Positions 6,924-63,418 of a stretch of 64,000 bases of DNA are shown here, piece by piece. Source of the stretch: Candidatus Aminicenantes bacterium (GTDB lineage Bacteria > Acidobacteriota > Aminicenantia > UBA2199); the NCBI GenBank assembly GCA_011049425.1, contig DSBM01000053.1:3689-67688 (forward strand), written 5' to 3'. Numbering within the stretch: position 1 is the first letter of the stretch; every line of letters begins with the position of its first letter. The translations under genes were made by a program, and so were the position numbers. The notes beneath the pieces were generated by a model. It searched no databases, was not told the origin of the DNA, and saw nothing but the letters and a program-made list of their open reading frames with translations.

Positions 6924-6998
6924 GATGCTCCTGATTATACACTTACGGAAAAAAAGTTGGAACCCAACTTTTCAGCTTTTCAACCTTTCAACTCTTAT

Positions 6999-9083
6999 CT
7001 ACGCCCGCCAATAGGTCGCGTAATCTTTGGGACCGGGCACATCAATGGCAAAAAAGCCGTCCTGGGGCAGGATTTGCAGCACACGACCGTCACGCCGCCA
7101 CTCCAGGTTCAATTCAAACCGATCCCCCACAGCCAGGTTGAGCGCATCCAACGCCAGCTCACATTCGATAACGGAACCGACCGCACCATTTCCAAAGCCG
7201 GGCTCGGGCGGAAGCACCAATTTGCGTACGGCCCCTCCGGGCAGGCGCAATCCCAACCGCAACTGTTCTTTGCGATGCAAACGCTCCTTTGCCTGATCGC
7301 GGGTGTCCACGCGAAGAAAGAAACGCCCGTCACCAAATCCGTAATACACTGCAACCAGTACCGATTCACCGGTATTCATGACGCCTTGTCCGGCATGGAT
7401 GTTCAAACGCCCGGCATCCCGCCACTCGAAAAAGTGGGTCACTTCCCCATCCAGAACCGGGTTCAACGGACGAATGGGGGGACGCGCCTTTATCAGGGAC
7501 TCATCCATTGCCGACGAAATCGGCATAATCAACTCCGTGGGTGGTTCAGTGCCGGTCAACTCGTATACCCGGCGTAGGTTGAGGCGAAATAAGCGATCAA
7601 ACACCTCCAGATCCCCGGTATGGTGCTCCGGACCAAACCACCAGAACCAGTCGCTGCCCTGGGCCACGTCCAGACAGTACTGCGCCTCTGCCGTTTCATG
7701 CTCGGAAAGTTGGTCTTTGTTGCGGATAAAATGATCCCTTGTGCGCTGGAGTTGTTTCCAGGCACGACGATCACTCTCGTCACCGATCCAGATATCAAAG
7801 TTCCCGTTGATCCACGAACCCGGGGACAGACTCCGCAGGCGTTCCGCCTTCATGGAAACCGCTTCACTCAGGGTCACGGCTTCCACCTGTTCATCCCGCT
7901 GAAGACGCGCCAGCAGATTGCGAAGGAAGGCCCGGCCGTTGTCGGGGTAGTGTTCCCAGGGATTCTCCCCGTCCAGGAACACACCCACCACCGCATCCTT
8001 GACCTGTTGACCAATTTCCCGCAAACGCAACATGAAATCCTCAACCGCTTCCTGAGGGTTCATTTTCTGGTAATGGAATCCAATCCGGTCGGAAAGATCG
8101 TGGTCGCGAAACAGGATGCGCAGTTCCCGTTTCCCCGCGATCCAGGGACGGTAGAGATGCTTATCACGCAAACCACTCCAATCCGCGTCTTTCCCGGGAT
8201 TCAAAGACCGCGCCAGGTTGATTTCGTCACTGGCCGTCCAGGTCACGCCGAGATCCTGAAAAAGATCCAGTACTTTCTCACTGAGACTCCCCTCGGAAGG
8301 CCATATTCCACGGGGCCGAACCCCGAAATGATGCTGCATGAAATCCAGCGCGTCCTGCACATGACGGCGGGCGTCGCCCTCCCAGTTAAAATCCAGATCA
8401 TAAAGCGGCAGTGTCGGATTGGCCACCCGGCCCACACGGGGATCCAGCAGCAGCGGCAGGATGGCATGGGTCATGGGCGAAGTCGACACCTCAACCAGGC
8501 CCTTTGACTCTAAATCGCGCCAGGCGGGGATCACGCCGGCCAGATGGTCGTGCTGCGCCTCGAAAAGCATGATCTTATCGGCCTCGGAAAAGCCGCGCCC
8601 CTTTTCGCGCAGACCCTGCACACGTTCGTCCGCCCGGGCGCGATCCGCATCAAACCAGGCCAGAGTCGACCAGACCTGCAGATCCCGCCAATCAGCGCTG
8701 GTTCCATTGCCTTGAGCCAATTCGCTTCGACGCGAATACAGCTCCTGGTAACGCGGAAATGGCTGGATCATGTGGACGGGATGCAATGAAAAAAAATGGC
8801 GCGCCATTAAAGTCTTTTCAACAGCATCCAGATCCGCCGCCGGTTTCTGCGCCACTTCCTGGAAGCGATCAATCTCTCCCGCCAGGTGTTTTTTTAACTG
8901 CAGCAACAGGCTGGGTACCAGGTTGACAGTGGAACGGACTCCGGGAAATTCGCCCAGCACCCCGGCCATACCACTGTAGTCTTTGATTCCGTGCAAACGC
9001 ACCCAAGGCAGTTCCGCTCTTCCGGAGAAGGGATTTACATACACCGGCTGGTGCATGTGCCACAACAAGGCAACGCGGATCAT
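6999..9083 (-). CDS. Glycoside hydrolase family 57 protein (alpha-glucan acting)
   Basis: From the internal start MIRVALLWHMHQPVYVNP, the GH57 N-terminal signature. ~694 aa with a C-terminal extension. RBS-less ATG at 9081-9083. Confidence 0.8.
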   Translation of the reverse strand: MIRVALLWHMHQPVYVNPFSGRAELPWVRLHGIKDYSGMAGVLGEFPGVRSTVNLVPSLLLQLKKHLAGEIDRFQEVAQKPAADLDAVEKTLMARHFFSLHPVHMIQPFPRYQELYSRRSELAQGNGTSADWRDLQVWSTLAWFDADRARADERVQGLREKGRGFSEADKIMLFEAQHDHLAGVIPAWRDLESKGLVEVSTSPMTHAILPLLLDPRVGRVANPTLPLYDLDFNWEGDARRHVQDALDFMQHHFGVRPRGIWPSEGSLSEKVLDLFQDLGVTWTASDEINLARSLNPGKDADWSGLRDKHLYRPWIAGKRELRILFRDHDLSDRIGFHYQKMNPQEAVEDFMLRLREIGQQVKDAVVGVFLDGENPWEHYPDNGRAFLRNLLARLQRDEQVEAVTLSEAVSMKAERLRSLSPGSWINGNFDIWIGDESDRRAWKQLQRTRDHFIRNKDQLSEHETAEAQYCLDVAQGSDWFWWFGPEHHTGDLEVFDRLFRLNLRRVYELTGTEPPTELIMPISSAMDESLIKARPPIRPLNPVLDGEVTHFFEWRDAGRLNIHAGQGVMNTGESVLVAVYYGFGDGRFFLRVDTRDQAKERLHRKEQLRLGLRLPGGAVRKLVLPPEPGFGNGAVGSVIECELALDALNLAVGDRFELNLEWRRDGRVLQILPQDGFFAIDVPGPKDYATYWRA

Positions 9084-12141: not shown

Positions 12142-12320
12142 GCTTTCCACTATACCGCTTCCCCAAATCAGTGGCAACCATATAACATATGTAGAAGGTA
12201 GAGGAATCGCCACAAGCGGCTCAACTCTCCACTTCAGACTTTTGACTTTCAACTTGGTGCTCATGCCACCTGATACCTGCCTGCCCGCCGTAGCCTTGGC
12301 AAAGGCGGGTCACCTTCTTT

Positions 12321-12503
12321 TGCTGTGATGGGAACTTGGGAGAATTTGTGATGAAGATCTTGAGGTCCTGGTGATGAGAACTCATGAGGGCTTGTGATGA
12401 AAACCCATCACAGTGCCTATTAGCGCTTCATCACAGTTCGGCCGGCGATTCAGGGCTGCCCGGCCGGTTTCTTCATCACTATGACTCCCTCGTGGTATCA
12501 CCG
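12321..12503. repeat. Iteron-like array: four direct ~23-bp units with TGTGATGA core, then three to four inverted CATCAC(A/T) units
   Basis: CTGTGATGGGAACTTGGGAGAAT / TTGTGATGAAGATCTTGAGGTCC / TGGTGATGAGAACTCATGAGGGC / TTGTGATGAAAACCCATCACAGT, then ...TTCATCACAG...CTTCATCACT...TATCACC. Confidence 0.6.
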
Positions 12504-12722
12504 TGCTTTAACTTTTCACTTTCAACTTTCGACTTCTTCCCCCCTCAACTCCCTCAACTGATTTTTCCGGGCTGGTATGAAATTCGCCCCATTGTCTTTC
12601 TACCTTCTACATTCTACCTTCTACGGATTTGAGCGCGGCAGAGCAGTGCCACGGGCTCATTGCGCCCTGTGCGGGATCATGATAGAATCCAGCGTGACCC
12701 ATCCGGCCTCCTTAACAAAACA

Positions 12723-16003: not shown

Positions 16004-16195
16004 TTGTCGAAAGTATGCGAAATCTGTGGAAAACGCCCGGTTACAGGCAACAACGTAAGCCACTCCCATAAACTCACCAAACGCCGCTGGCTGCCGAACC
16101 TTCAGGCCGTTCGCGTGGACGTGGACGGCAAAACCCGGCGCATGCGCGTGTGCACCTCTTGCATCCGTTCGGGGCGAGTGCGCAAAGCCGTCTAA
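16004..16195 (+). CDS. rpmB: 50S ribosomal protein L28 (TTG start)
   Basis: SKVCEICGKRP...GNNVSHSHKLTKRRWLPNLQ: canonical L28 with a CxxC...CxxC zinc ribbon. Confidence 0.85.
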   Translation: MSKVCEICGKRPVTGNNVSHSHKLTKRRWLPNLQAVRVDVDGKTRRMRVCTSCIRSGRVRKAV

Positions 16196-30367: not shown

Positions 30368-30391
30368 AGGGCGACCGGCCGGTCGCCCCTA
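30368..30391. repeat. REP-like palindromic element GGGCGACCGGCCGGTCGCCCCTAC (copy 1 of 3)
   Basis: Perfect 20-nt palindrome plus a CCCCTAC tail. Identical at 45242-45266; near-identical at 43457-43480. Confidence 0.7.
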
Positions 30392-30454
30392 CATTTTCAA
30401 CTTCTTCCCTTTTATGCCCGAAAGGGTACTCCAACTTTTCAACTTTTTTATCTT

Positions 30455-31429
30455 CTACTTCGCCACGATCCCGCTGCCCAGCCAAGCGATATAGCAGATA
30501 TAGACGGCCAGCAGAAAAGCGCCCTCCCAGCGGTTGATCATTCCGGGACGGCCGCGGAAACCGCGCCCGATCACGAACAGCGAAACCGTGAGCCCGAGCA
30601 TGACCACGCCATCCCGCCATACCACTTCAGGAGCGGTACGAAAAGGGTGGATCACTCCGGCCAGGCCCACCACGGCTAAGGTGTTGAAAAGGTTCGAGCC
30701 CAGGACGTTGCCCAGGGCGATATCGTTCTCGCCTCGACGCACCGCGGCTACGGCGGATGCCAGCTCCGGCAGAGAAGTGCCCAATGCCACGATGGAAAGA
30801 CCGATCACCAGCTCAGACACACCCAGCCCCCGGGCCAGGCGCACGGATCCCCATACCAGCATACGCGAACTGACCGCCAGGAGAACAAGTCCGGCCAGGG
30901 TCCAGGCAACGGCCCGCTGCTTGGGCATGGGGTGGGTTGATAGGTCCACCTCAATTTCCGAGCCAAAGGCATCCGCTCCGGATTGCCGGCCGCTGCGAAT
31001 GGTCCAGGCCATCAGAGATGCAAAAAGCAATAGCAGCACAACCGATTCCCACCTTGCCAGGTTACCGTCCAGTACGAGGCCAATGGCCATAAGCGTGACG
31101 ATCGTCAGGAGGGGAAGTTCGGCGGTTAACACTTTGGAGCGAACCATAACCGGCCGGGCCAGTGCGGCCAATCCCAGGATCAGGGCGATATTGGCGATGT
31201 TCGAACCCCAGCCGTTGCCCAATCCCAGGTCCGGGTTGCCGTCCAGGGCCGCCAGGGTGGACACAATCATTTCCGGCAGCGAAGTTCCGAATCCGACCAC
31301 CACCATGCCGATCAAAAGCGGCGGAAGGCCGGCGTGCTGCGCAGTGGATGAAGCGCCCAGCACAAAACGATCCGCACTCCACGCCAGCAATGCCAATCCG
31401 GCCGCCACGGCCAAACCCGCGGTCCACAT
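30455..31429 (-). CDS. CaCA-family Na+/Ca2+ (cation/Ca2+) antiporter, YrbG-like
   Basis: Two alpha-repeat motifs GTSLPEM...GSNIANI and GTSLPELASA...GSNLFN. Confidence 0.85.
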   Translation of the reverse strand: MWTAGLAVAAGLALLAWSADRFVLGASSTAQHAGLPPLLIGMVVVGFGTSLPEMIVSTLAALDGNPDLGLGNGWGSNIANIALILGLAALARPVMVRSKVLTAELPLLTIVTLMAIGLVLDGNLARWESVVLLLLFASLMAWTIRSGRQSGADAFGSEIEVDLSTHPMPKQRAVAWTLAGLVLLAVSSRMLVWGSVRLARGLGVSELVIGLSIVALGTSLPELASAVAAVRRGENDIALGNVLGSNLFNTLAVVGLAGVIHPFRTAPEVVWRDGVVMLGLTVSLFVIGRGFRGRPGMINRWEGAFLLAVYICYIAWLGSGIVAK

Positions 31430-31720: not shown

Positions 31721-33442
31721 ATGCAGACACAACTTTTTGAAAACCTGGGATTGAATGACAGCCTGACGGCGGGGATCAATGATTTGGGATTCACCACTCC
31801 AACCCCCATCCAGACGCAGGTGATCCCTCACATTCTGGAGGGAAAACGCGACCTGGTGGGCCTGGCCCAGACGGGAACAGGCAAGACCGCCGCTTTCGGA
31901 CTGCCCCTGGTACAACAAGTCAACCTTCAGACGCCCCATATCCAGGCCCTGGTGTTGAGCCCCACCCGGGAGCTCTGTCTGCAGATCGCCCGGGACATCA
32001 AATCCTTTGCCCGCCACATCAAGGGCTTCAAGGCCCTTGCCATCTACGGAGGTGCCAGCATGGAGACCCAGGTCGCCGGCCTGAAGCGTTCTCCCCAGAT
32101 CGTGGTGGCCACACCCGGCCGCCTGCTGGACCTGATGCGCCGCGGCAAAGTCGATCTTTCTTCTCTGGACTCTCTGGTGCTGGATGAAGCAGACGAGATG
32201 TTGAACATGGGTTTTGCGGAAGATCTTACCGCCATATTGGCGGGCACTCCCTCAGATAAGCGTACTTATCTCTTTTCCGCCACCATGCCCCGCGAAGTAG
32301 CCGCCATCGCCGCCGGCTACCTGACCGACCCGAACGAGATCACTTCGGGCCCGCGCAACTCCGGTGCCGAGAATGTCCATCACGTGTACTACACCGTTGC
32401 GGCCAGCAACCGCTACCAGGCCTTGAAACGCATCGTTGACATGTCCCCGGAAATCTACGGCATCGTATTCTGCCGTACCCGCCAGGAAACCCGGGAGGTG
32501 GCGGATAAACTGGCCCTGGACGGCTACAACGCAGACGCCCTCCACGGCGACCTGTCGCAGGCCCAGCGAGACCATGTGATGGACCGGTTCCGCAAAAAGA
32601 ACCTGGCCCTGGTTGTGGCCACAGACATCGCCGCCCGTGGCCTGGATGTCACCGATCTGACCCACATTATCAACTACAACCTCCCCGACGAGCTGCAGAG
32701 CTATACCCACCGCAGCGGCCGTACCGGGCGTGCGGGGAAAAGCGGAACTTCCATCGTCATCATCAACCGCAAGGAAACCCACAAGATCCGCATGATTGAA
32801 AAACTGACCGGCAAGCAGTTCGAAGCGCGTCCCGTTCCGGACGGAAAGGCCGTATGCGCGCAGAAATTAGCCCACTTCATCCACCGGATCCAGAACGCCG
32901 AAGCCATTGACCCCGGCATGGAGCCCTTCATGGAGCCGATAGTACGCGAATTGACCGCCATGGATAAAGAAGACCTCATCCGCCGTTTAATTTCGCTTGA
33001 ATTCAAGCGCGTATTGGAAGACTATCGCCGGGCTCCGGACCTGAACGCGCGCGAAAAACCGGACCCCCGGAACAAGACGAACAAACCCTCTTTCTCAGCC
33101 ATGCCCATGACCCGTTTCCGTATCAACGTGGGCCGTCGTCACGAAATCTCGCCCCCGGCAGTGATCGGCATGGTCAATGACCTCTCGGGAAAACGCGACA
33201 TCCAGATCGGGCGCATCGAAATCAAGCAGTCATTTTCCATTTTTGAAATCGACCGCTCCTTCGAGCACCTGATCCTGAAGTCTTTTCACAATGCCCGCTT
33301 CTCTGGAACCCCATTGATGATCGAGGTGGCGCCGGCAGCACCCCCCGCTTCGCGGACCATCCGCAACATCCGCAGCAACGGCTCCCGGCAGCACCGCAAG
33401 GGCCCGGCTTTGGGCGCAGGAATCGGAAGCCGAACCTGTTAA
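31721..33442 (+). CDS. deaD: DEAD-box ATP-dependent RNA helicase (DeaD/CsdA type with C-terminal DbpA-like RNA-binding domain)
   Basis: Q motif FTTPTPIQ, AQTGTGKT, DEAD, SAT, HRSGRTGR. Start taken at MQTQLFENLGL. Confidence 0.85.
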   Translation: MQTQLFENLGLNDSLTAGINDLGFTTPTPIQTQVIPHILEGKRDLVGLAQTGTGKTAAFGLPLVQQVNLQTPHIQALVLSPTRELCLQIARDIKSFARHIKGFKALAIYGGASMETQVAGLKRSPQIVVATPGRLLDLMRRGKVDLSSLDSLVLDEADEMLNMGFAEDLTAILAGTPSDKRTYLFSATMPREVAAIAAGYLTDPNEITSGPRNSGAENVHHVYYTVAASNRYQALKRIVDMSPEIYGIVFCRTRQETREVADKLALDGYNADALHGDLSQAQRDHVMDRFRKKNLALVVATDIAARGLDVTDLTHIINYNLPDELQSYTHRSGRTGRAGKSGTSIVIINRKETHKIRMIEKLTGKQFEARPVPDGKAVCAQKLAHFIHRIQNAEAIDPGMEPFMEPIVRELTAMDKEDLIRRLISLEFKRVLEDYRRAPDLNAREKPDPRNKTNKPSFSAMPMTRFRINVGRRHEISPPAVIGMVNDLSGKRDIQIGRIEIKQSFSIFEIDRSFEHLILKSFHNARFSGTPLMIEVAPAAPPASRTIRNIRSNGSRQHRKGPALGAGIGSRTC

Positions 33443-34283: not shown

Positions 34284-34457
34284 ATGAACAATCCGGTTGA
34301 ATGCCCTGTCTGCGGGGGGGGGCTGGATCTGCCTGAAGATGCCGTTCAGGGAGAACTGATCACCTGCCCGGAGTGCAACAGTGAGTTGGAGTTGGTAACA
34401 GTATCTCCTCTCAAGTTAGAGGAAGCTCCCGGCGAAGCAGAGGACTGGGGCGAGTGA
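34284..34457 (+). CDS. lysW: Amino-group carrier protein LysW
   Basis: [57 protein letters not shown]: zinc ribbon plus the acidic tail ending EDWGE, the LysW hallmark. RBS AGGAGG. Confidence 0.85.
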   Translation: MNNPVECPVCGGGLDLPEDAVQGELITCPECNSELELVTVSPLKLEEAPGEAEDWGE

Positions 34458-42498: not shown

Positions 42499-42816
42499 CA
42501 TCGGCCGCACCCCCCACTTCGCGGACCACACGCAGCAACGGCTCCCGGCAGCACCGCAAAGGCCCGGCTCCCGTCCGCGCCACCGCATCGTCATAATCTT
42601 TAACGGCGGGCATCGCAATCGTGTCTGTTTTCCACCCTTCAGGTTGTCCACGATCACTCCCTAATTTCCCGAAGTGATTGGATGGGCACACGGGCGAAGG
42701 AGCCTTCATTGGGGAAAGAAAAACATTTGCTTTAAAAACACTTGATTGGCGTGCGCATTCAGCGTATGCTGCGGTTGCGGCTGAACCCAACCCGCAAAAA
42801 TTTCGTGAGGCGAAAA

Positions 42817-43456: not shown

Positions 43457-43480
43457 AGGCGACCAGCCGGTCGCCCCTAC
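43457..43480. repeat. REP-like palindromic element (copy 2, AGGCGACCAGCCGGTCGCCCCTAC)
   Basis: One mismatch relative to copies 1 and 3. Lies in a convergent intergenic region. Confidence 0.65.
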
Positions 43481-43616
43481 ACCTTCCCTCAATAACTTTT
43501 GTCTTTCCTTTGCGCCGGTTTTATGCCTTCTACTTTCGCGACCACCAGCCCCCTGCCACCTGATACCTGTCACCTGCCACATTCTTTCCAACTTCCCCAA
43601 CTCTCCAACTTTTTTT

Positions 43617-45241: not shown

Positions 45242-45266
45242 CGGGCGACCGGCCGGTCGCCCCTAC
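45242..45266. repeat. REP-like palindromic element (copy 3)
   Basis: CGGGCGACCGGCCGGTCGCCCCTAC between the M28 stop and the FISUMP start. Confidence 0.7.
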
Positions 45267-45288
45267 TTTTCTCTTTTATCTTTTCACT

Positions 45289-46875
45289 TCATTTTTCCAT
45301 CGGAAAAGTAAGGTTGTTTTTCCACGTCGGCGGGGTGCGGGAATCGTTGATGCGGCGCACCAGCCACAATGCCGCCTGGATGGTCTGGCGCAGGCCGCCC
45401 AGGTCCCAGTTCGGGTTGTATTCATCCCGCACAGTGTGATAATCCCCAAGCCAGAAGCGGGTATAATGCCGCTCGCCATCCACCTCTTCTTCCCCGGCTG
45501 AGATCCACACCGCCGGGATTCCCCGGCGCGCGAAGGCGAACTGGTCGGAACGGTAAAACAGCCCCTGGTTGGCCAGGGAAAATTGGGAATACCCCAGGCC
45601 GGCGGCGGCGGCCGTTTCACGTATCAAATCCTCGAAAGTGGAAAAGCGCGCGCCGATCCCCATCAGGGTGGTGGACGGCTTCCATACCGGGGTGGATTCA
45701 AAATTGATGTTGGCCACGATTGTAGAACGGTCTGTGTTATCCACGAAGTATTTTGACCCCAACAAACCCGCCTCCTCGCTGTTGCAGGCCAGCAAGGTGA
45801 CAGAGTAGTGAAGCGTGGATTGAAATTTCTTGAGGATTTTTGCCGCCACCACCATGGCGGCAACCGCCGTGCCGTTGTCAATCGCCCCGTTATAGACGTT
45901 GTCCCCACCGGCATCCGTTTTCCCCAGGTGGTCGATGTGGGCGCTGAGAACGATCCGTTGGCTAACCTTTCCGGGGATCGTGGCCACCACGTTGCGGTTC
46001 ATGATCGTTTCACATTTGTTGTTGCCGCTGATCGTGACCGGCAGGCCCAGATCTGCAGGCCGGAAATCCCGGGAAAGGGAATCCATGTACAGTGCCTCCA
46101 GCTCAATCCCCTTTCTCGCCAGTAACGTGCGCAAACTCTCTTCCCGGATCCAGCCCCGGAACACGAGGTCATTCTCGATCTGGGAGGGGATAAAAAGCTC
46201 ACCGTTGGTCCAGGAGTTTTTCACCACGTTCCAATCGTAGCCCGCGGATTCAGCCGTATGGATCAACAGGATGCCCATGGCCCCGCGGCGCACGGCCTCC
46301 TCGATGTGGTAGGTCCAGCGGCCGAAATAGGTCAACGTTTTGCCCTCGAAAATTTCCGGATGGTACAGACCGGGGTCGTTGACACGACTGACCAGGATCT
46401 TGCCCGAGATATCCACATCCTTGAAATCGTCCCAGTTCCATTGCTCCGCCTGGATGCCGAACCCCGTAAATACCAGTGGCGCGGTCAGGTTAAACCGCTT
46501 TTTCTCTTGTGTGCAGGTGCCCACCAGGTCGCGGATGTATTCCAGTCTTGCCTCGCCCGCTGAAAGCTGAATGGCTGAAGTGGTGAACTTCTTCAATGTA
46601 AACGGCTGCATGTACCCCTGCGCTCCCGCGGGCTCCAGATCCATGAATTTGAACAGGCTGCGCAGGTAGATCTCCGCCAGGTCGCCCCCGCGAGTGCCCG
46701 GGGCGCGGCCTTCCAGCAGGTCGTGTCCCAGGAATTCCACCACGGCCTGCATCTCCGCCCGTGAAATGCCCTGTAACCGCTTTTCAAAAGCGTCGTCCGC
46801 GGCTACGCCCCACACCGTCGTTCCCGCCAGAGCCAGCAAAAATACCATGATTCCCAACCGTTTTATCATGACCAT
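45289..46875 (-). CDS. Secreted M28-family aminopeptidase with PA domain
   Basis: Signal peptide, then NVVATIPG...LSAHIDHLG, NGAIDNGTAVAAM, CNSEEAGLLGSKYF: M28 zinc-ligand blocks. Confidence 0.85.
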   Translation of the reverse strand: MVMIKRLGIMVFLLALAGTTVWGVAADDAFEKRLQGISRAEMQAVVEFLGHDLLEGRAPGTRGGDLAEIYLRSLFKFMDLEPAGAQGYMQPFTLKKFTTSAIQLSAGEARLEYIRDLVGTCTQEKKRFNLTAPLVFTGFGIQAEQWNWDDFKDVDISGKILVSRVNDPGLYHPEIFEGKTLTYFGRWTYHIEEAVRRGAMGILLIHTAESAGYDWNVVKNSWTNGELFIPSQIENDLVFRGWIREESLRTLLARKGIELEALYMDSLSRDFRPADLGLPVTISGNNKCETIMNRNVVATIPGKVSQRIVLSAHIDHLGKTDAGGDNVYNGAIDNGTAVAAMVVAAKILKKFQSTLHYSVTLLACNSEEAGLLGSKYFVDNTDRSTIVANINFESTPVWKPSTTLMGIGARFSTFEDLIRETAAAAGLGYSQFSLANQGLFYRSDQFAFARRGIPAVWISAGEEEVDGERHYTRFWLGDYHTVRDEYNPNWDLGGLRQTIQAALWLVRRINDSRTPPTWKNNLTFPMEK

Positions 46876-46920
46876 CTCCTCTCTCCTATTCTAGGCCAAA
46901 GAAAGAAAATGTGGAATAAA

Positions 46921-46980
46921 AAGTTGAAGAGTTGGAGCGTGAAAAACCGGCAAGGGGCCAGGGGAAATTGGCGAGGGGGA
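46921..46980 (-). promoter_or_regulatory. Conserved ~60-nt upstream element (copy A) ~50 nt before the M28 peptidase start
   Basis: Coding-strand sequence TCCCCCTCGCCAATTTCCCCTGGCCCCTTGCCGGTTTTTCACGCTCCAACTCTTCAACTT. ~88% identical to copy B. Confidence 0.5.
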
Positions 46981-47045
46981 CAGGAGGAAGGCACTGCCCC
47001 CTCATTCTTTCTCGTTATTCGATATTCAGAACATGCCTTGGCTTT

Positions 47046-47127
47046 TTCATCACAAAGCCCGAAATTTTGCTCATCCACAAGGGGGCCCTTGCGTTCACAT
47101 CACTAGTACGACGAGTTCCCATCACAA
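47046..47127. repeat. Second iteron-like array: four CATC(A/C)ACA units at ~22-25 bp spacing in the divergent M28 / lipoprotein intergenic region
   Basis: TTCATCACAAAG (47046), TCATCCACAAG (47071), TCACATCACTAG (47096), CCCATCACAATA (47118). Confidence 0.55.
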
Positions 47128-47198
47128 TAATGAATTAAACGGCGGTGTTATATTTCTTGCCGATTTGCTAGAATTTGGCCACGACAGGAGGAAACACG

Positions 47199-47807
47199 AT
47201 GAAGAAATTCAAAAGTACACTGGTATTTTGCATCTCATTGCTCTTTTTCACCATGCTGTTCTTTGCCTGCAATGATAACGCCCCCACAGAAGACCCGATG
47301 AATGCAGCGCAGAAAGCGGAAACCGATGTGGATTCGCCGCCGGCCGCTGATGCCGCGCAAACAGCGCCGGCAAGTGAGGGAAAAGCCGTCAGTGGTTGGA
47401 AACAGGTTAATTATGAAGACTTTACTTTCATGATTCCCGCCGATTGGAAGCGGGAAAGCAACACCGACATCTGGTTCCCAAAAACAGAGAGCTTCGACAT
47501 GGGATTACCCTTGATTTCCCTGCAATGCGGGCTGATGCCGATTATGGCCGGCCAGACCGTTGACGAACAGATCAAGGAAATGATTCACGGGTCCGCGCCC
47601 AAAAGCAAAACCGCAGTGGACAAATGCAACATGAGCGGTCATACCTGGGAGGCTCACGACGACTTGAGCCACATGACCCTTACCCTGGAAGATCCACGGG
47701 GTGAAATGATAGCGGTCTATTTCTTTAACTGCCGGGTTCCGCGCAACCAGTTCACCAACTACAAAGAGATCTACCGCAAAATCCTGGATTCCGTGCAGTG
47801 CAACTGA
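47199..47807 (+). CDS. Lipoprotein of unknown function
   Basis: MKKFKSTLVFCISLLFFTMLFFAC lipobox. RBS AGGAGG. Slightly lower GC than the surroundings. Confidence 0.55.
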   Translation: MKKFKSTLVFCISLLFFTMLFFACNDNAPTEDPMNAAQKAETDVDSPPAADAAQTAPASEGKAVSGWKQVNYEDFTFMIPADWKRESNTDIWFPKTESFDMGLPLISLQCGLMPIMAGQTVDEQIKEMIHGSAPKSKTAVDKCNMSGHTWEAHDDLSHMTLTLEDPRGEMIAVYFFNCRVPRNQFTNYKEIYRKILDSVQCN

Positions 47808-47822
47808 AACCCGGCTGCTGAA

Positions 47823-50234
47823 TCAGTTCCGGCCCCCGCCGGCAAGATCGATACGGATTTCATTGCGATAGCGATTGCGGGCGCTTCCCTGGGTACCGAT
47901 CACACCCTGGGGCATGGTGTCGCTGCGCTCCCGCTTCCTGACAAAGGGAAATTCATCCACGTTCGCGCCTTTGCGCACGGTAAAACTCAGCGGATCAAGT
48001 ATTTGATCAGCGGGCGCCGGCACCCCGGAAAAATCCGTGCTCATAATCGGACTCATACTGGATCCCGTGTCGACGACCACATTGATCTCTTTTGTGTCAT
48101 GATGAATGGCCTCGCCCGAAAACACGTATCCCGCAACGCCATTACTTTTTTCATGCTTTTCCACCCGCCAACGGATCCGGGTATCGAGGGTGTAGTTGGA
48201 AGGAGAGATCGAAACAATTCGATTCGGCGTATCGGCTCCGGTGGACTCCAGCACACACTTCACCGCATAGGTCACCTCAACTTCGGCCTCACTTTCCCCC
48301 TTGGGCAGAAACAGGGTGAATTCAGCGTTTGTTGCTGCCGTATAGTTGTACGTGTACCCCTGCGAATCCAGGTTGCCGCTGTTGCGAATGCGAAAAGTCA
48401 TGCCGCTTTCACAATCCAGCACGAAATCGGTATCAGGGGCCGTGCTGTCCGGCGCCTTGCAGTTAATCTCTATTTTTTTGCTCTCCCGGCCATTGCCGTC
48501 AGGGCAGCTGGCGGTGACCACGGCTTCACCCACGGGAATGTTTTTGATGTGGTAGGTACCGGACACTTCGCGAGTGATGGTTTCGCCGCGGGAGGGCTTG
48601 ACCCGGATGGTGGCTCCCTTTAGATCGACTCCGTCTTTGTCGCGCACGTGGCCACGGACCTCACCGCAACAATCCAGTTCGAAATCGATGTCACCGTCCT
48701 TGCTCCCGGGGGCATCACAGCTGATGTCAACCGTTTGCGTCTGTTGATGCACGCCCGTTGCACAGGCCGCCGTAATCGTGGCTTCCCCCACCGGGATGTC
48801 GCTGATTTCAAAGGGGCTGTCGACTCGACGGGTAATGGTTTCATTCTGGGACGGCCTGACCTTGATGTTGACCTGCTTTAGTTCATTGCCGAACCTGTCG
48901 CGCACGTGGCCGCGGATCGTCCCGGCGCAATCCAGCTCAAAATTAGTAAAATCCTCCGAGATTCCGGGGATCTGGCAGGCGATGTCAACCGTTTTTGCTT
49001 GCTGGTGCACTCCCGCGGCGCAGGTAACGGTGACCGTGGCTTCACCGACCGGAATGTATTCGATGCGGTAGGGGCTGGAGACTTCACGGGTAATGGTTTG
49101 TCCCCCGGAAGGCTTGACCTCGATGGTCGCCCCCTCCAGTTCATTCCGCCACTTGTCACGGATGTAGCCGCGGATTTCCCCCTGGGGATGGTAGACGAGG
49201 TCCTCCCGGTACGTTTTTCCGGCGGTCAGCTTCAATGTCATTTTCACCGGTTGGCACTCCTTGTCCTCGGGATTGGTCAGGGTGCAAGGCATGCTCTCGG
49301 TCATGGAGATGCGCGGATCGGTCATACCGATATAGTCTTTGAAATAGCGACCGCCCTCGCGGGAGCGTGTCCGGTATGTGACGTTGTAGGGACCGGAGAG
49401 TTCGATCCGCACACCCTCCAGGGGATTGCCGTCGCGGTCCACCACCCGGCCTTCCATGCGCGTGGTGACGGGAATGACATTCAGAGAGACACCGACGGAT
49501 GATTTACTACCGTCAATGATCACTGGGGGGCTGACCAGCGGGTCACCCGCGAAGATAAAATTATAGCTGAAACCGACGATGCGGTGAAACACGTAGGAGC
49601 CGAAAAGGGTGGACGGAAACAGCTGCTTGAAGTAGAACTTTTCCAGGCCGTCGGTTTCATACACGAAATTGGCGGATTCGCCCGAGCTGGTTTCCCTGCT
49701 GGTCATGTCGAAGTATATGCCGGCGGGCTCTTCTTCCGCCTCTTCGGTCATAATGACAACGCCCTCTATGACGATCTGCTGGTATCTGCTTTCCATGGTA
49801 CCGACAACAATCGTGGAAAAGGAGCGCAAAAGCAGCGTGGCGCGCGCGTTTTCCTTATCAATTGCAGAAGGAAACAGCAGTTCTTCTTTGCCGCCGGACA
49901 ACTTAATAAAAACGATGCGGTCAACATCCGCCAGCGCGGCCGCGGGCAACGGGAAAGAGATCAACAGGGGATACCGCGGCGCCTTCTCTTCCATGGTGAT
50001 TTCGTAAGCGATTCCGAAGGTCTTTACCCCTTTGGCGCGGATGGGGGGCACGGTGGTCTTTTTGACCAGGGGTGGCTTCAAATCGGGACTGTTCCGGCCC
50101 GGGCTCCACTGCAAGCCATGAACCAGTTTTTTCAACTCAGGCACATCCCCGGCATTGGTTGGGGAAACGAAAAACAATGCGCATAAAATAAGAAAAAGAC
50201 CAGAGAGCACAATTCTGTCGCGGCGAAGTGTCAT
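47823..50234 (-). CDS. Large secreted/surface protein with three tandem ~86-aa CarboxypepD_reg-like (Ig-like beta-sandwich) repeats
   Basis: Signal peptide. Repeats GEIRGYIRD.../GTIRGHVRD.../GEVRGHVRD..., each ending ...DFxLDC. The nucleotide-level tandem repeat lies at ~48410-49185. Confidence 0.7.
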   Translation of the reverse strand: MTLRRDRIVLSGLFLILCALFFVSPTNAGDVPELKKLVHGLQWSPGRNSPDLKPPLVKKTTVPPIRAKGVKTFGIAYEITMEEKAPRYPLLISFPLPAAALADVDRIVFIKLSGGKEELLFPSAIDKENARATLLLRSFSTIVVGTMESRYQQIVIEGVVIMTEEAEEEPAGIYFDMTSRETSSGESANFVYETDGLEKFYFKQLFPSTLFGSYVFHRIVGFSYNFIFAGDPLVSPPVIIDGSKSSVGVSLNVIPVTTRMEGRVVDRDGNPLEGVRIELSGPYNVTYRTRSREGGRYFKDYIGMTDPRISMTESMPCTLTNPEDKECQPVKMTLKLTAGKTYREDLVYHPQGEIRGYIRDKWRNELEGATIEVKPSGGQTITREVSSPYRIEYIPVGEATVTVTCAAGVHQQAKTVDIACQIPGISEDFTNFELDCAGTIRGHVRDRFGNELKQVNIKVRPSQNETITRRVDSPFEISDIPVGEATITAACATGVHQQTQTVDISCDAPGSKDGDIDFELDCCGEVRGHVRDKDGVDLKGATIRVKPSRGETITREVSGTYHIKNIPVGEAVVTASCPDGNGRESKKIEINCKAPDSTAPDTDFVLDCESGMTFRIRNSGNLDSQGYTYNYTAATNAEFTLFLPKGESEAEVEVTYAVKCVLESTGADTPNRIVSISPSNYTLDTRIRWRVEKHEKSNGVAGYVFSGEAIHHDTKEINVVVDTGSSMSPIMSTDFSGVPAPADQILDPLSFTVRKGANVDEFPFVRKRERSDTMPQGVIGTQGSARNRYRNEIRIDLAGGGRN
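48410..49185. repeat. Three ~258-bp imperfect tandem repeats internal to the large surface-protein gene
   Basis: The repeated protein units map to this interval. Recurring nucleotide strings (e.g. cgcacgtggccgcgga..., gggatgtcgctgat...) are visible. Confidence 0.6.
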
Positions 50235-50424
50235 CTGATTATACCTCTGCCCGGAATAATCTCAAAAAAAAACAAAACTATCAACCCCCGCAAACGAAAC
50301 CCAAGCGTTCCATCACTTTCCGATCAGGATGTTCTGCCTTCTGCCACCTGTCTGTCCTTGTAGAAGGTAGAAAGTAGAAAAACGCATTGGGGCTGCTTTC
50401 GGCTTTATGCTTTCGACTGAATTG

Positions 50425-50484
50425 TCCCCCTCGCCACTTGCCTATGGCCCCTTGCCGGTTTTTCACTCTCCAACTTTCCAACTT
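50425..50484 (+). promoter_or_regulatory. Conserved ~60-nt upstream element (copy B) ~45 nt before the membrane-protein gene start
   Basis: TCCCCCTCGCCACTTGCCTATGGCCCCTTGCCGGTTTTTCACTCTCCAACTTTCCAACTT, followed by TATAAT at 50497-50502. Confidence 0.5.
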
Positions 50485-50526
50485 TATTTTTATTGCGCTA
50501 TAATATCCCTATTCGGAGGTCATCAC

Positions 50527-51306
50527 ATGCCGGACAAAGGAACCAAGAAAAAAGTCGTTCGTGTGGAAAGCCCGGAATCATCCGGGAAAGAAGTCAGTAA
50601 AGGCCGGGCGTTTACTCCCGCCCCGGAAGCCAAAAAGCGCGCGGGCAAAAAACGCCTGCTAGCGATCCTCTCCTGGATCGTGGCCATCGCCTGCGAAGCC
50701 GGAGCCATTTACCTGCTCCTGAAACCGCCCATCAACACCACCTGGCTGATCGTGCTGATCGCCGTGGACCTGGTATTTGTCGTGATCGGCTCGTTGCTGT
50801 GGAAAAAAGCCAACCGCCTGGATCCCGCCTCGGAGAAAGAGAAAGTCAGGTTCTTTGTGCAGAACCAGTTGGGCGTCATCATCGCCGTCATCGCTTTCCT
50901 GCCCCTGGTCATCCTCATTTTTACCAACAAGGACTTGACCGGTAAACAAAAGGGCCTGGTGGGAACCATCGCGATCATCGCCCTGGTCATTGCCGGCGTC
51001 ATGGGCGTGGACCTCAACCCGCCCTCCCAGGAACAGTACGCCGCGCAAACGGCCGAAGTTGAGTCTCTGACGGGGGGCCGCGACTTTGTTTACTGGACCA
51101 AGTCCGGCACCAAGTACCACATCTATTCCGATTGCCACGCCATCAACCGCAAGGTGACGGACCAGATCTTTGAGGGCACGGTGGCGCAGGCGCGGGAACT
51201 CAAGAACATCACCGAGTTGTGCAGCTTCTGCAGGAGCCGGGCGGAAAAAGAAAAGCAACTGCAACCCGCCCAGACCCCGGACAGCACCGAGGTGCAACAG
51301 GAATAG
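50527..51306 (+). CDS. Membrane protein (4 TM) with C-terminal Cys/His-containing domain, unknown function
   Basis: Start MPDKGTKKK with RBS GGAGG. Lys-rich N-terminus, four TM helices, C-terminal YHIYSDCH...CSFC. Confidence 0.55.
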   Translation: MPDKGTKKKVVRVESPESSGKEVSKGRAFTPAPEAKKRAGKKRLLAILSWIVAIACEAGAIYLLLKPPINTTWLIVLIAVDLVFVVIGSLLWKKANRLDPASEKEKVRFFVQNQLGVIIAVIAFLPLVILIFTNKDLTGKQKGLVGTIAIIALVIAGVMGVDLNPPSQEQYAAQTAEVESLTGGRDFVYWTKSGTKYHIYSDCHAINRKVTDQIFEGTVAQARELKNITELCSFCRSRAEKEKQLQPAQTPDSTEVQQE

Positions 51307-57057: not shown

Positions 57058-57267
57058 CCCCTATTCCAAGGAACTGCCCTCACCCATGAGCACGGCCGCC
57101 AAGCTGGACAGGACCTGCAACGTCTGGGCCTCGATCCCTTTCGCATGGGGTCCTTTCCCGGGAACCACGGGCAATTGCCCGGATACGTAGACCAGGCCGT
57201 TGTGGATCACCGTCTGGCTGTAATATCCCGCCGGTGCCGACGCGTTTTCCGTAAACACGAATTCCAT
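57058..57267 (-). pseudogene. ridA: RidA (YjgF/TdcF) family gene truncated after ~70 codons at the island border
   Basis: MEFVFTENASAPAGYYSQTVIHNGLVYVSGQLP...LAAVLMGEGSSLE, then stop. Full-length RidA continues ~55 aa further, including the substrate-binding Arg. Confidence 0.55.
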
Positions 57268-57584
57268 TTCTTGCTCCAGGTACGTGATCTCTTTGGCGAA
57301 AACGATGCACCACGTCCCCCCCTTCATACCATGGAAAACCCGCGCGCGGACCTGGCCCTTGCGAAGTAAAGCAGACGGGCCGCAACCGCGTTTGTGGATA
57401 AAAACAGTTGAAGAGTTGAAGAGGAGGGAAGTTGAACAAGTTGAGGAGACTGGAAAGTAACTTTATACGTTTATACGCACCGGCCCCAAGTTTTTTTTCG
57501 TGCCTTATTCCTTCTTCGTTATTCCTTATTCAGAGCTTTGTCCTGTCACCTGTCTTCTGGTCTCCTGCCACCTTCTTTTTACTT

Positions 57585-63186: not shown

Positions 63187-63418
63187 ATTTATTCCTCTGA
63201 ATCCTCAACTAAAAAAATCTCAATCATCACTTTCACGAATTCATTAACTTCCCGTAAGGGTGATATCAACAATCATACACTTTCCTCTCCAGCTCCTCAA
63301 CTTCCACCCTAACAAATAGCCACCAGCCCCTTCCCTGGTTTCCCCATGCCACTCGCCTCTTGCCATTTGCCCGTTTGTGTCCTGCCGCCTTTCTTTCCAT
63401 GATATAATTGAGCACGAA

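What the first reader, a model, noticed from the sequence alone, without database searches (positions are those of the whole stretch)
46921..46980. ~60-nt conserved leader/promoter element shared by the M28 peptidase gene and the 4-TM membrane protein gene
The two copies (46921-46980 on the minus strand; 50425-50484 on the plus strand) are ~88% identical (TCCCCCTCGCCA..TGGCCCCTTGCCGGTTTTTCAC.CTCCAACT.T.CAACTT). Both end 45-50 nt upstream of the start codon in the same orientation relative to the gene. Weaker copies of the 3' half (CTCCAACTCTTCAACT) precede the ridA stub (57404-57460, minus) and the flavodoxin-like gene (63268-63300). This looks like a regulon-specific promoter (an alternative sigma or activator site) or a 5'-UTR riboregulator controlling secreted and envelope proteins.
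Basis: seen in the sequence. Interest (0 to 1): 0.6.

Follow-up and report, generated by a model that had tools for sequence, protein, structure and literature searches.

The report
Duplicated block of intergenic word repeats
The shared 60-nt sequence is real, but it is two inverted copies of a block of short tandem 7- and 8-base "word" repeats that fill many intergenic regions in this Aminicenantes lineage, sitting just upstream of ordinary promoters, and not a regulon-specific promoter or an RNA switch.

Summary
The two 60-mers are 53/60 identical. The match extends to 68 nt, and its 22-nt exact core occurs only at these two sites.

The element is composite: four 7-nt units (YTYGCCN), a T-run linker, then two 8-nt units (YTYCAACT). 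Both unit types belong to a clade-specific vocabulary of intergenic tandem words in this Aminicenantes lineage. The octamer arrays also lie directly after stop codons and next to cytoplasmic housekeeping genes.

Both copies sit upstream of predicted sigma-70-like promoters whose -10 boxes recur in relatives, so they are probably not transcribed as leaders. Their offset to the -10 differs by 13 nt. They show no RNA structure and no Rfam match.

Copy B is ancestral, because the sister species carries it at the same locus. Copy A is absent upstream of the sister's M28 gene, where homology breaks inside the octamer array. More distant orthologous promoters carry different words in the same layout.

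The only sequence-specific role I would commit to is that the last octamer supplies the -35 hexamer of the 4-TM gene promoter.

The arrays follow an orientation rule relative to gene ends that is already published for heptamer repeats in Xanthomonas and Nostoc. I file this as a new member of a known kind, of modest interest.

The parts
46915..46982 (-). Copy A of the 68-nt composite. Heptamer block 46947-46979, linker GGTTTTTCAC 46939-46948, two CAACT octamers 46921-46938.
   Evidence: (I1) and 99: lag-7 self-match 0.54, lag-8 self-match 0.79.
50423..50490 (+). Copy B of the 68-nt composite, the ancestral copy. Heptamers CTCGCCA/CTTGCCT/ATGGCCC/CTTGCCG at 50426-50458, linker 50457-50466, two CAACT octamers 50467-50484.
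   Evidence: The orthologous copy is in sister locus L075 at 655-752.
46888..46915 (-). Predicted sigma-70-like promoter of the M28 peptidase gene (TCCACA-16-TAGAAT), immediately 3' of copy A.
   Evidence: The same promoter sequence is present in L001. The TAGAAT -10 is also present in L002/L076.
50475..50504 (+). Predicted sigma-70-like promoter of the 4-TM gene (TTTCCA-18-TATAAT). Its -35 hexamer is the last CAACT octamer of copy B.
   Evidence: GCGCTATAAT at the same distance from the ATG in L075, L076, L079 and L203.
45289..46875 (-). M28 family peptidase gene downstream of copy A. The likely start is ATG 46869, preceded by GGAG.
50527..51306 (+). Conserved Aminicenantes membrane protein gene (the '4-TM' gene) downstream of copy B. 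The in-frame upstream ORF from 50407 is an artefact, because the pyrimidine strand is open in this frame.
   Evidence: An 8-nt indel in the sister inside that extension breaks its frame.
47145..50287 (.). Two-gene module (lipoprotein 47199..47807 +; CarboxypepD_reg/Big_1 protein 47823..50234 -) lying between the two inverted copies. In a relative it sits in a different genomic context and lacks the element.
   Evidence: L209 5950-9089 matches window 47145-50287 at 86.7%.
43586..43611 (+). CAACT octamer array (3 units) ending 6 nt from the stop of the Zn-peptidase gene. On the gene's sense strand it reads TAG-AAAAAAA-GTTGGAGAGTTGG...
   Evidence: The orthologous array is at L079 12441-12469.
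30429..30445 (+). Exact CTCCAACTTTTCAACTT, 10 nt from the stop of the Na/Ca-exchanger gene (30455..31429, -), with the purine strand in sense.
6962..6995 (+). Four-unit CAACT-type array 5 nt from the stop of the GH57 gene (6999..9083, -).
57405..57445 (-). Two CAACT-type arrays upstream of the truncated RidA-like ORF. They follow purine words (GAAGGT, CAGGTGA, GAATAAGG) that start at the FtsX gene stop.
63287..63371 (+). A degenerate CAACT pair (63287-63303) plus a four-unit YTYGCCN heptamer array (63345-63371) upstream of the flavodoxin-like gene. These are the same two word types as the element, in the reverse order.
12190..12630 (+). Word-rich divergent intergenic region between exonuclease VII and a radical-SAM gene, containing GTAGAAG, CAACT, CCACCTG, GTGATG/CATCAC and TTCTACC arrays.

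Best explanation
The element is one block of lineage-specific intergenic short tandem repeats, present here as two inverted paralogous copies. Each copy is (YTYGCCN)x4, then GGTTTTTCAC, then (YTYCAACT)x2, on the pyrimidine-rich, G-poor strand that points towards the adjacent gene.

It lies at about -35 to -105 relative to an ordinary sigma-70-like promoter.

Shown:
- The composite and periodic make-up of the element.
- Its membership in a clade-wide vocabulary of intergenic words.
- The variation in unit number and the turnover of words between orthologous loci.
- That copy B is ancestral, that the sister species' M28 upstream region lacks copy A, and that the junction lies inside the octamer array.
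- That the arrays obey an orientation rule at gene ends.

Inferred:
- The arrays arise and change size by slipped-strand replication.
- Blocks are moved or copied by recombination between arrays. Here this is associated with a translocated two-gene module now sitting between the copies.
- The only sequence-specific function is that the terminal octamer (TTYCAA) serves as the -35 hexamer of the 4-TM promoter.
- The rest acts, if at all, through composition and orientation rather than as a specific binding site.

The similarity between the two promoters therefore reflects common descent, not a shared regulon signal.
For: Periodicity: lag-7 self-match is 0.54-0.58 in the 5' half (p = 0.006-0.03) and lag-8 self-match is 0.79-0.86 in the 3' half (p < 0.0002).

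Vocabulary: TRF finds 7-8-nt arrays in many intergenic regions (CAACTTTT, CTTTCAA, TTCTACC, CCACCTG, GTAGAAA, CCTTATT). The same heptamer word forms a 4-unit array at 63345-63371.

Clade specificity: CAACT-N3-CAACT occurs only in the window and its close relatives. One other locus (L042) had a single match and 68 loci had none, including the more distant Aminicenantes loci listed there.

Orthology: sister locus L075 aligns end to end with the window at 90% and carries copy B with 2 substitutions and one octamer fewer. Sister locus L001 aligns with the window only from inside the CAACT array onward and lacks the 5' half.

Turnover: L076, L079, L202 and L203 have the same layout upstream of the conserved GCGCTATAAT, namely heptamers, a T-rich linker, then CAACT-type units, but with other words and other unit numbers.

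Substitution rate: the word region is 87% identical to the sister with 43 gap columns, against 78-87% identity at third codon positions.

Promoters. No structure or known RNA family.

Orientation rule: in the clade, 10 arrays abut stop codons with the purine strand in sense, against 1 the other way (p = 0.012).

No functional coherence among neighbouring genes.

The same class and the same polarity are published for GGGNATC heptamers (PMC4692102).
Against: Copy B plus its promoter is better conserved between the window and the sister than synonymous sites are: 2 mismatches in 44-60 aligned positions against about 16% at third positions (p = 0.002-0.02). Some constraint on the upstream block therefore cannot be excluded.

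The two 10-mers CCCCTYGCCR lie 21 bp apart, on the same face of the helix, as sites for a dimeric or tandem regulator would.

The arrays showed no indels among three assemblies of the same strain, although these are 99.97-99.98% identical and give little power. High slippage rates are therefore not demonstrated at this depth.

The promoters and transcription starts are consensus predictions supported by conservation, not mapped experimentally. Only 64 kb of the genome was visible, so further full copies elsewhere are not excluded.

Gene calls in the related loci come partly from a crude script of my own.
Confidence: 0.6

Rival explanations
1. The block is a shared upstream regulatory site. It would be an activator or repressor operator, or an UP-like module, whose duplication places the M28 peptidase and the 4-TM protein under common control.
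For: Both copies have the same orientation and sit directly upstream of the core promoters. CCCCTYGCC direct repeats lie 21 bp apart in both copies. Copy B is more conserved against the sister than synonymous sites are.
Against: The offset to the -10 differs by 13 nt, which is not a whole number of helical turns. The site is absent from the sister's M28 promoter. It is replaced by other words at 4-TM promoters of species with 80-89% protein identity. The 21-bp spacing follows trivially from 3 x 7. nhmmer found no further full copy in about 2 Mb of related and metagenomic loci.
Confidence: 0.12
2. The block is a polar gene-boundary element. The C-rich, G-poor, unstructured strand is the one that would be transcribed by polymerases heading into the adjacent gene. 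It would act as a Rho-loading (rut-like) insulator against read-in or antisense transcription. The sequence of the words would be irrelevant, and only composition and orientation would matter.
For: C/G is 3.3 and the strand is 76% pyrimidine. It is less structured than shuffles. The orientation rule holds at gene ends in the clade. It also holds in metagenomic contigs of GC 0.38-0.70, 27 against 3. Words turn over while composition is kept. The same polarity is reported for other heptamer repeats (PMC4692102).
Against: There is no transcript or Rho evidence at all. For both copies the upstream neighbour is divergent, so there is no obvious read-in transcription to stop. The mirror explanation, that purine-rich outgoing transcripts are what matters, fits the rule equally well. 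The upstream-flank statistic in the clade is not asymmetric overall (12% against 10%).
Confidence: 0.12
3. The two copies are terminal inverted repeats of a mobile or invertible 3.4-kb cassette, acting as transposon ends or as a recombinase-driven inversion switch.
For: The copies are inverted and bracket a two-gene module (I1). That module sits in another genomic context in a relative. Two JGI assemblies break inside the intergenic region that holds copy A.
Against: The module in L209 has no such repeats at its ends. Its homology with the window stops at 47145 and 50287, well inside the copies. The module contains no transposase or recombinase. Three independent assemblies show the same orientation. 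Copy B belongs to the 4-TM promoter region in the sister species.
Confidence: 0.05
4. The element is a 5'-UTR riboregulator or leader RNA.
For: It lies close to the start codons and has the same orientation as the genes.
Against: The -10 boxes, which recur in relatives, lie downstream of the element. There is no stable or shared fold, with z between -0.4 and +1.6. Rfam gives no hit at the gathering threshold or at E<=1. An 8-nt unit indel and a 30-nt indel separate the window from the sister in and next to the element.
Confidence: 0.03

Closest known systems
GGGNATC / GGGGA(C/T)T heptamer repeats of Xanthomonas and Nostoc (Rehm et al. 2015, PMC4692102)
   Same: Both are tandem 7-nt units of 2 to many copies, spread over the genome and over-represented in non-coding DNA. 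Unit number and sequence vary between related genomes at the same loci, and there is no functional coherence among neighbouring genes. The polarity is the same: the G/purine-rich strand is the coding strand just after stop codons, and the non-coding strand just upstream of ORFs.
   Different: The words here are not G-tract (quadruplex) motifs. Several different 7- and 8-nt words are concatenated in a recurring order. The host is Aminicenantes. In Xanthomonas and Nostoc the repeats are under-represented between divergent genes, whereas both copies here lie between divergent genes.
TAACTGA intergenic direct repeats of marine Beggiatoaceae, cyanobacteria and Bacteroidetes (MacGregor 2015, PMC4679880)
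   Same: Both are short intergenic heptamer arrays of 2-6 copies with a patchy phylogenetic distribution. Downstream genes have no common function, and the function of the repeats is unknown.
   Different: The TAACTGA repeats lie within a few nucleotides of start codons, probably in the leader. A translational role through S1, Csp or CsrA was proposed for them. Here the block lies upstream of the predicted -10, and other arrays abut stop codons.
Cyanobacterial STRR sequences and 'long simple sequence repeats' with 5-11-nt units (Mazel et al. 1990, from my own knowledge; Mrazek et al. 2007, as summarised in PMC4679880)
   Same: Both are families of tandem heptanucleotides in non-coding DNA. Heptamers are the dominant unit length, which has been attributed to polymerase slippage.
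   Different: The arrays here are short (2-10 units) and mix 7- and 8-nt units in mosaics. Whether they exceed the statistical 'long' criterion genome-wide could not be tested.
Mosaic intergenic repeats: E. coli BIME/REP and pneumococcal BOX elements (from my own knowledge)
   Same: Both are modular combinations of short motifs in intergenic regions, with a variable number of internal modules. They occur as inverted pairs and lie next to REP-like palindromes (GGGCGACCGGCCGGTCGCCC, D5).
   Different: The element itself is not palindromic and shows no significant fold. Its modules are micro-tandem arrays rather than 30-45-nt boxes.
Sigma-70 promoter -35 hexamer and upstream region
   Same: The last octamer unit gives TTTCCA/TTCCAA 17-18 nt upstream of TATAAT in the window, L075, L079 and L203.
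   Different: This is true only for copy B. In copy A the array ends 10 nt upstream of a separate -35 (TCCACA). The remaining 50 nt have no promoter-consensus counterpart.

Membership tests
Intergenic short tandem repeats with 5-11-nt units (LSSR / STRR / GGGNATC / TAACTGA class) | Head-to-tail repetition of a 5-11-nt unit | tested here: met
   Lag-7 and lag-8 self-similarity of the two halves against shuffles. TRF reports arrays of period 7-8 across the window.
Intergenic short tandem repeats with 5-11-nt units (LSSR / STRR / GGGNATC / TAACTGA class) | Strong bias to non-coding DNA, many loci per genome | tested here: met
   About 10 of the 27 intergenic regions of at least 40 nt contain word arrays. 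Arrays of 3 or more units are all intergenic in the clade loci.
Intergenic short tandem repeats with 5-11-nt units (LSSR / STRR / GGGNATC / TAACTGA class) | Unit number and sequence vary between related genomes at the same locus | tested here: met
   There are 1, 2, 2 and 4 CAACT units at the 4-TM promoter in L075, the window, L203 and L079, and 2 against 4 units at the M28 promoter in the window and L001.
Intergenic short tandem repeats with 5-11-nt units (LSSR / STRR / GGGNATC / TAACTGA class) | Arrays longer than expected by chance (the 'long' SSR criterion) | tested here: inconclusive
   The two-unit motif occurs 7 times against 0.72 expected. The arrays in the element have only 2 and 4 units, and the whole genome was not available.
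Intergenic short tandem repeats with 5-11-nt units (LSSR / STRR / GGGNATC / TAACTGA class) | Polarity relative to ORF ends (purine/G-rich strand coding after stops, non-coding before starts; Rehm et al. 2015) | tested here: met
   In the clade the count is 10 against 1. In metagenomic loci it is 27 against 3 within -2..+8 nt of stops of ORFs of at least 300 aa.
Regulon-specific promoter (alternative sigma or fixed activator site) | Fixed register between the motif and the -10 / transcription start | tested here: not met
   The array ends 27 nt from the -10 in copy A and 14 nt in copy B.
Regulon-specific promoter (alternative sigma or fixed activator site) | The motif precedes a functionally coherent gene set in one orientation | tested here: not met
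   Arrays also abut stop codons in the opposite orientation. Their neighbours include exonuclease VII, a radical-SAM enzyme, a pseudouridine synthase, a GH57 enzyme and a Na/Ca exchanger.
Regulon-specific promoter (alternative sigma or fixed activator site) | The site is conserved at orthologous promoters | tested here: not met
   It is kept only at the sister's 4-TM locus. It is absent at the sister's M28 promoter and replaced by other words in L076, L079, L202 and L203.
Cis-regulatory leader RNA / riboswitch | Lies within the transcribed 5' UTR | tested here: not met
   The predicted -10 boxes, which recur in relatives, lie downstream of the element. This is a prediction, not a mapped transcription start.
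Cis-regulatory leader RNA / riboswitch | Conserved, thermodynamically favoured secondary structure, or a match to a known family | tested here: not met
   z-scores run from -0.42 to +1.61 and the folds differ between copies. Rfam gives 0 hits at the gathering threshold and at E<=1.
Transposon / MITE terminal inverted repeats | The inverted repeats travel with the element and lie at its exact ends; a transposase or target duplication is present | tested here: not met
   The module in L209 lacks the repeats, and its homology ends inside them. No transposase domain was found.
Rho utilisation (rut) site | C-rich, G-poor, unstructured RNA of about 60-80 nt | tested here: met
   C/G is 3.3 over 68 nt and z is at or above -0.4.
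Rho utilisation (rut) site | Rho-dependent termination downstream of the site | not testable with these tools
   This needs transcript 3'-end mapping or in vitro termination assays.

The most novel reading that the evidence does not exclude
The word arrays, including this block, could be functional, orientation-dependent gene-boundary elements rather than slippage debris. The evidence for this comes from contigs spanning GC 0.38-0.70. There, (R)GTTGRRR octamer arrays begin -2 to +8 nt after the stop codons of Pfam-confirmed, functionally unrelated genes, almost always with the purine strand in sense. In this clade the same arrays point their pyrimidine strand into promoters. That would suggest a widespread boundary signal that is independent of the particular word. 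It could be a Rho-loading insulator against incoming transcription, or a 3'-flank signal for outgoing transcripts or ribosomes.
Probability: 0.15. Interest if true: 0.7.

Novelty: new member of a known kind. Interest (0 to 1): 0.3.

Why it matters
For annotation, a striking 88% match between two promoter regions should not be read as a regulon signal in genomes whose intergenic DNA is built from tandem words. Such blocks can be copied and rearranged, and they break assemblies.

For biology, this extends the little-understood class of 7-8-nt intergenic repeats to Aminicenantes (Acidobacteriota). The class is known from cyanobacteria, Xanthomonas and Beggiatoaceae.

It also shows the words arranged in a recurring order, and it reproduces the published strand polarity at gene ends with unrelated words. 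If that polarity reflects function, it would point to a general, composition-based boundary signal in bacterial genomes.

Tried and rejected
1. Exact scans for the 21-nt core GGCCCCTTGCCGGTTTTTCAC in genome contigs and metagenome contigs gave 0 hits. The pattern was too strict, because the sister copy differs by one base.
2. An exact-protein look-up of the M28 peptidase with start 46869 was not on record.
3. nhmmer with the A/B/sister alignment against all fetched loci (about 2 Mb) found no further full copy. Only octamer-array hits and one weak architectural match at L079 15399-15482 appeared.
4. Folding whole intergenic regions to test for long hairpins formed by purine and pyrimidine words gave z = -1.3, -2.0, -2.2 and +0.7. 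This is no consistent structure.
5. L081 seems to lack 117 nt of the array region compared with L079 despite identical coding DNA. The junction carries NN, so I treat it as an assembly artefact and not as a polymorphism.
6. A general flank statistic (outward purine content) is clearly asymmetric for downstream flanks (19% against 1%). It is not asymmetric for upstream flanks (12% against 10%), probably because co-directional gene pairs are counted twice. I did not rely on the upstream part.
7. The idea that stop-codon adjacency is produced by the array itself, since AGTTGA carries TGA in all three frames over three units, explains only the cases at -6, -14 and -22. It does not explain the main cluster at -2..+8.
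8. Literature searches for Aminicenantes plus intergenic repeats, and for the array sequences as text strings, found nothing.
9. I considered resemblances to integron attC core sites (GTTRRRY), to the CRISPR 8-nt tag (AUUGAAAG) and to the 16S 3' end from memory. I dropped them as untested look-alikes.

Full report
**1. Observation**

The 60-mers at 46921-46980 (-) and 50425-50484 (+) share 53 of 60 bases. Gap-free extension gives 68 nt at 87%, 46915-46982 / 50423-50490 (I1).

The exact 22-mer TGGCCCCTTGCCGGTTTTTCAC occurs only at these two sites, with none expected by chance. Both copies point towards the downstream gene. They end 42 nt (copy B) and 45 or 51 nt (copy A) before the start codon.

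Three independent assemblies of the same strain match the window at 99.97-99.98% with no indels. In one of them (L206) the copy-A intergenic region was aligned directly and is identical over 351 nt. The arrangement is therefore real. A perfect 22-nt run is not unusual given 7 mismatches in 60 (P = 0.26).

**2. Anatomy**

The element is not a unique sequence. Its 5' half is four 7-nt units. In copy B these are CTCGCCA/CTTGCCT/ATGGCCC/CTTGCCG, with lag-7 self-match 0.54-0.58 (p = 0.006-0.03).

Its 3' half is two 8-nt units (YTYCAACT), with lag-8 self-match 0.79-0.86 (p < 0.0002). The linker GGTTTTTCAC joins the two halves. The strand that points to the gene is 76% pyrimidine, with C/G = 3.3.

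**3. The element belongs to a vocabulary of intergenic words**

TRF and direct reading show that about ten of the window's intergenic regions are patchworks of short tandem words. These words are CAACTTTT, CTTTCAA, TTCTACC/GTAGAAG, CCACCTG/CAGGTGA, CCTTATT/GAATAAGG and CTTTCGN. There are also GTGATG repeats spaced about 20 nt apart and a REP-like palindrome.

The octamer motif occurs 7 times in the window against 0.72 expected. The heptamer word forms another 4-unit array at 63345-63371.

The organism is an Aminicenantes (Acidobacteriota) bacterium. Among the 75 loci held at that point, CAACT-N3-CAACT arrays occurred in the window and its close relatives. One other locus had a single match and 68 had none, including more distant Aminicenantes loci.

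In relatives the words recur in a preferred order: A-run, (AGTTGGAG)n, GAAGGT, (CAGGTGA)n, GGAGGCAGG, CTGAATAAGGAATAA..AGAAGGAATAAG, GGCAAGGGGC, GTGATG repeats. The window has the same order at 43480-43616 and 57480-57584.

The 68-nt element has this same layout, with CTYGCCN heptamers where other copies have CACCTGN.

**4. Position relative to promoters**

Consensus scans place sigma-70-like promoters just downstream of both copies. Copy A has TCCACA-16-TAGAAT at 46915..46888. Copy B has TTTCCA-18-TATAAT at 50475..50504.

The -10 of the 4-TM gene (GCGCTATAAT, 23 nt before the ATG) recurs in four related loci (L075, L076, L079, L203), while the sequence upstream of it changes. The M28 promoter has the same sequence in the sister, and its TAGAAT is kept in L002. 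Leaders would be only about 12-18 nt, so the element is upstream of the transcript. This is an inference from predictions.

In copy B the last octamer is the -35 hexamer, and this is also true in L075, L079 and L203. In copy A the array ends 10 nt before a separate -35. The distance from array to -10 is 27 nt in A and 14 nt in B, so the register is not fixed.

**5. Not an RNA element**

Folding of both copies and of the sister copy gives z-scores from -0.42 to +1.61, with different structures in each. Rfam finds nothing at gathering thresholds in the whole window, nor at E<=1 in 46700-50650.

The in-frame ORF that covers copy B (50407..) is an artefact of the stop-free pyrimidine strand. An 8-nt unit indel in the sister breaks its frame.

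**6. History**

The sister MAG (GCA_016926835.1) aligns with the window over the whole of L075 at 90%. It carries copy B at the orthologous place, with 2 substitutions, one octamer fewer and 30 extra nt just upstream.

Its M28 contig L001 aligns with the window only from inside the CAACT array onward. Upstream of the array it is unrelated and lacks the heptamer half, although it has four octamers. Copy B is thus ancestral. Copy A is a paralogous copy whose junction lies in an array.

Copy A is about as far from B (87-89%) as from the sister's B (85%). The duplication is therefore roughly as old as the species split.

The copies bracket a two-gene module (lipoprotein plus CarboxypepD_reg protein, window 47145-50287). 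In another relative this module lies next to POR genes without the element. In L076 the M28 and 4-TM genes are near neighbours.

I infer recombination or rearrangement among word arrays, possibly the splitting of a mirror-symmetric divergent intergenic region by the module. The exact path is not resolved. I see no transposase and no evidence of inversion polymorphism.

**7. Evolutionary behaviour**

Between the window and the sister, the word-rich part of the intergenic region is 87% identical with 43 gap columns, mostly whole units. Third codon positions are 78-87% identical. At 80-89% protein identity the same promoter carries other words in the same layout. This argues against a sequence-specific site.

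There is one caveat. The 44-60 nt of copy B itself show only 2 substitutions against the sister, fewer than expected from synonymous sites (p = 0.002-0.02).

**8. Orientation rule**

In the clade loci, the 3' end of the pyrimidine-strand reading of every well-placed array faces the nearest gene boundary. In the window this end is often followed by a T-run. Ten arrays start at -14 to +10 nt from a stop codon with the purine strand (AGTTGRRG) in sense. Six face start codons at 42-64 nt. One abuts a stop the other way round (p = 0.012).

Among arrays next to stops of ORFs of at least 300 aa, 27 lie at -2..+8 nt with the purine strand in sense. Three lie in the other orientation (p = 8e-6).

Eight of ten such ORFs tested have clear Pfam domains of unrelated function: AFOR, beta-galactosidase, TonB receptor, MFS, DHQ synthase, a lyase, peptidase C69 and MCP. 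AGTTGA carries TGA in all three frames over three units, but that explains only the minority of cases at -6, -14 and -22.

The same polarity was reported for GGGNATC heptamers in Xanthomonas and Nostoc (PMC4692102).

**9. Neighbouring genes**

Genes next to arrays in the window include exonuclease VII, a radical-SAM enzyme, a pseudouridine synthase, GH57, a Na/Ca exchanger, an ECF transporter component, MacB/FtsX, an outer-membrane efflux protein, and M28 and Zn peptidases. There is no secreted or envelope regulon.

**10. Conclusion**

The best explanation is a duplicated block of lineage-specific intergenic tandem words next to ordinary promoters (confidence 0.6). Its only committed sequence-specific role is supplying the -35 of the 4-TM promoter.

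The rivals are a shared operator or UP-like site (0.12), a polar rut-like boundary element (0.12), ends of a mobile or invertible cassette (0.05) and a leader RNA (0.03).

Compared with known systems, it fits the class of 5-11-nt intergenic tandem repeats (STRR, LSSR, GGGNATC, TAACTGA; PMC4679880, PMC4692102). It differs in host, in words and in the mosaic order.

No paper in the searchable library describes these repeats in Aminicenantes or these array sequences. I rate it a new member of a known kind, with interest 0.3. The cross-lineage stop-codon polarity of AGTTG-type arrays is the most interesting open thread.

Noticed in passing
window 30369-30396, 43457-43484, 45243-45270; L076 9370-9420: REP-like palindrome GGGCGACCGGCCGGTCGCCC followed by CTAC, in three intergenic regions. 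Relatives carry GTAGGGGC plus hairpins with variable loops. It often sits next to the word arrays.
   Followed up: no
window 12320-12500 and 47040-47135: Repeats of GTGATG spaced about 15-22 nt apart. At 12320-12500 a GTGATG block faces a CATCAC block, forming a long imperfect palindrome between exonuclease VII and a radical-SAM gene.
   Followed up: no
L079 9838-9925, 15470-15565, 1200-1265: An insert of about 85 nt (TATAYTCAATGA...GATTGATTTTCC) interrupts CAACT octamer arrays at three separate loci of one genome. It looks like a small mobile element that targets the arrays.
   Followed up: no
L004 9466-9495 and 9654-9683; L079 12530-12559 and 15368-15397; window 57511-57540 (-): A unit of about 80 nt (CTGAATAAGGAATAA..AGAAGGAATAAG..GGTTCCTTTCGCTTCGCTGAAGGCAAGGGGC) looks about 90% alike, by eye, between two relatives of the window whose M28 and 4-TM proteins are 74% and 84% identical to the window's. 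It is multi-copy within genomes. This is better conserved than neutral DNA should be. It could be a small RNA, a protein-binding site or a recently spread element.
   Followed up: partly
metagenome loci L082-L201 (for example L083 4595-4640, L127 4371-4600, L198 2308-2350): (R)GTTGRRR octamer arrays of 3 to about 49 units start -2..+8 nt after the stop codons of long, Pfam-confirmed genes in contigs of GC 0.38-0.70. The count is 27 against 3 for the opposite orientation. Adjacent arrays of other words differ from contig to contig.
   Followed up: partly
window 33337-33409 and 42497-42569: A 73-nt direct repeat at 77% identity. One copy lies inside the 3' end of ORF 31721..33442, and the other starts at the stop of the ORF ending at 42498 (the Aconitase-domain gene of L206).
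   Followed up: no
L207 and L208, position 1 (= window 47101): Two JGI contigs of the same strain both begin 98 nt upstream of the lipoprotein gene, inside the intergenic region that holds copy A. The repeats appear to break assemblies. The sister MAG's contigs L001 and L075 are also very short.
   Followed up: partly
window 57061-57327 (-): A RidA/L-PSP-like ORF of only 88 aa (Pfam profile positions 2-63 of 121).
   Followed up: partly
window about 16004-16192 (+) and about 34284-34453 (+): Two 'intergenic' gaps in my crude gene calls contain small genes by eye. One looks like ribosomal protein L28 with a TTG start. The other looks like a LysW-type zinc-ribbon carrier protein ending in EDWGE.
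   Followed up: no
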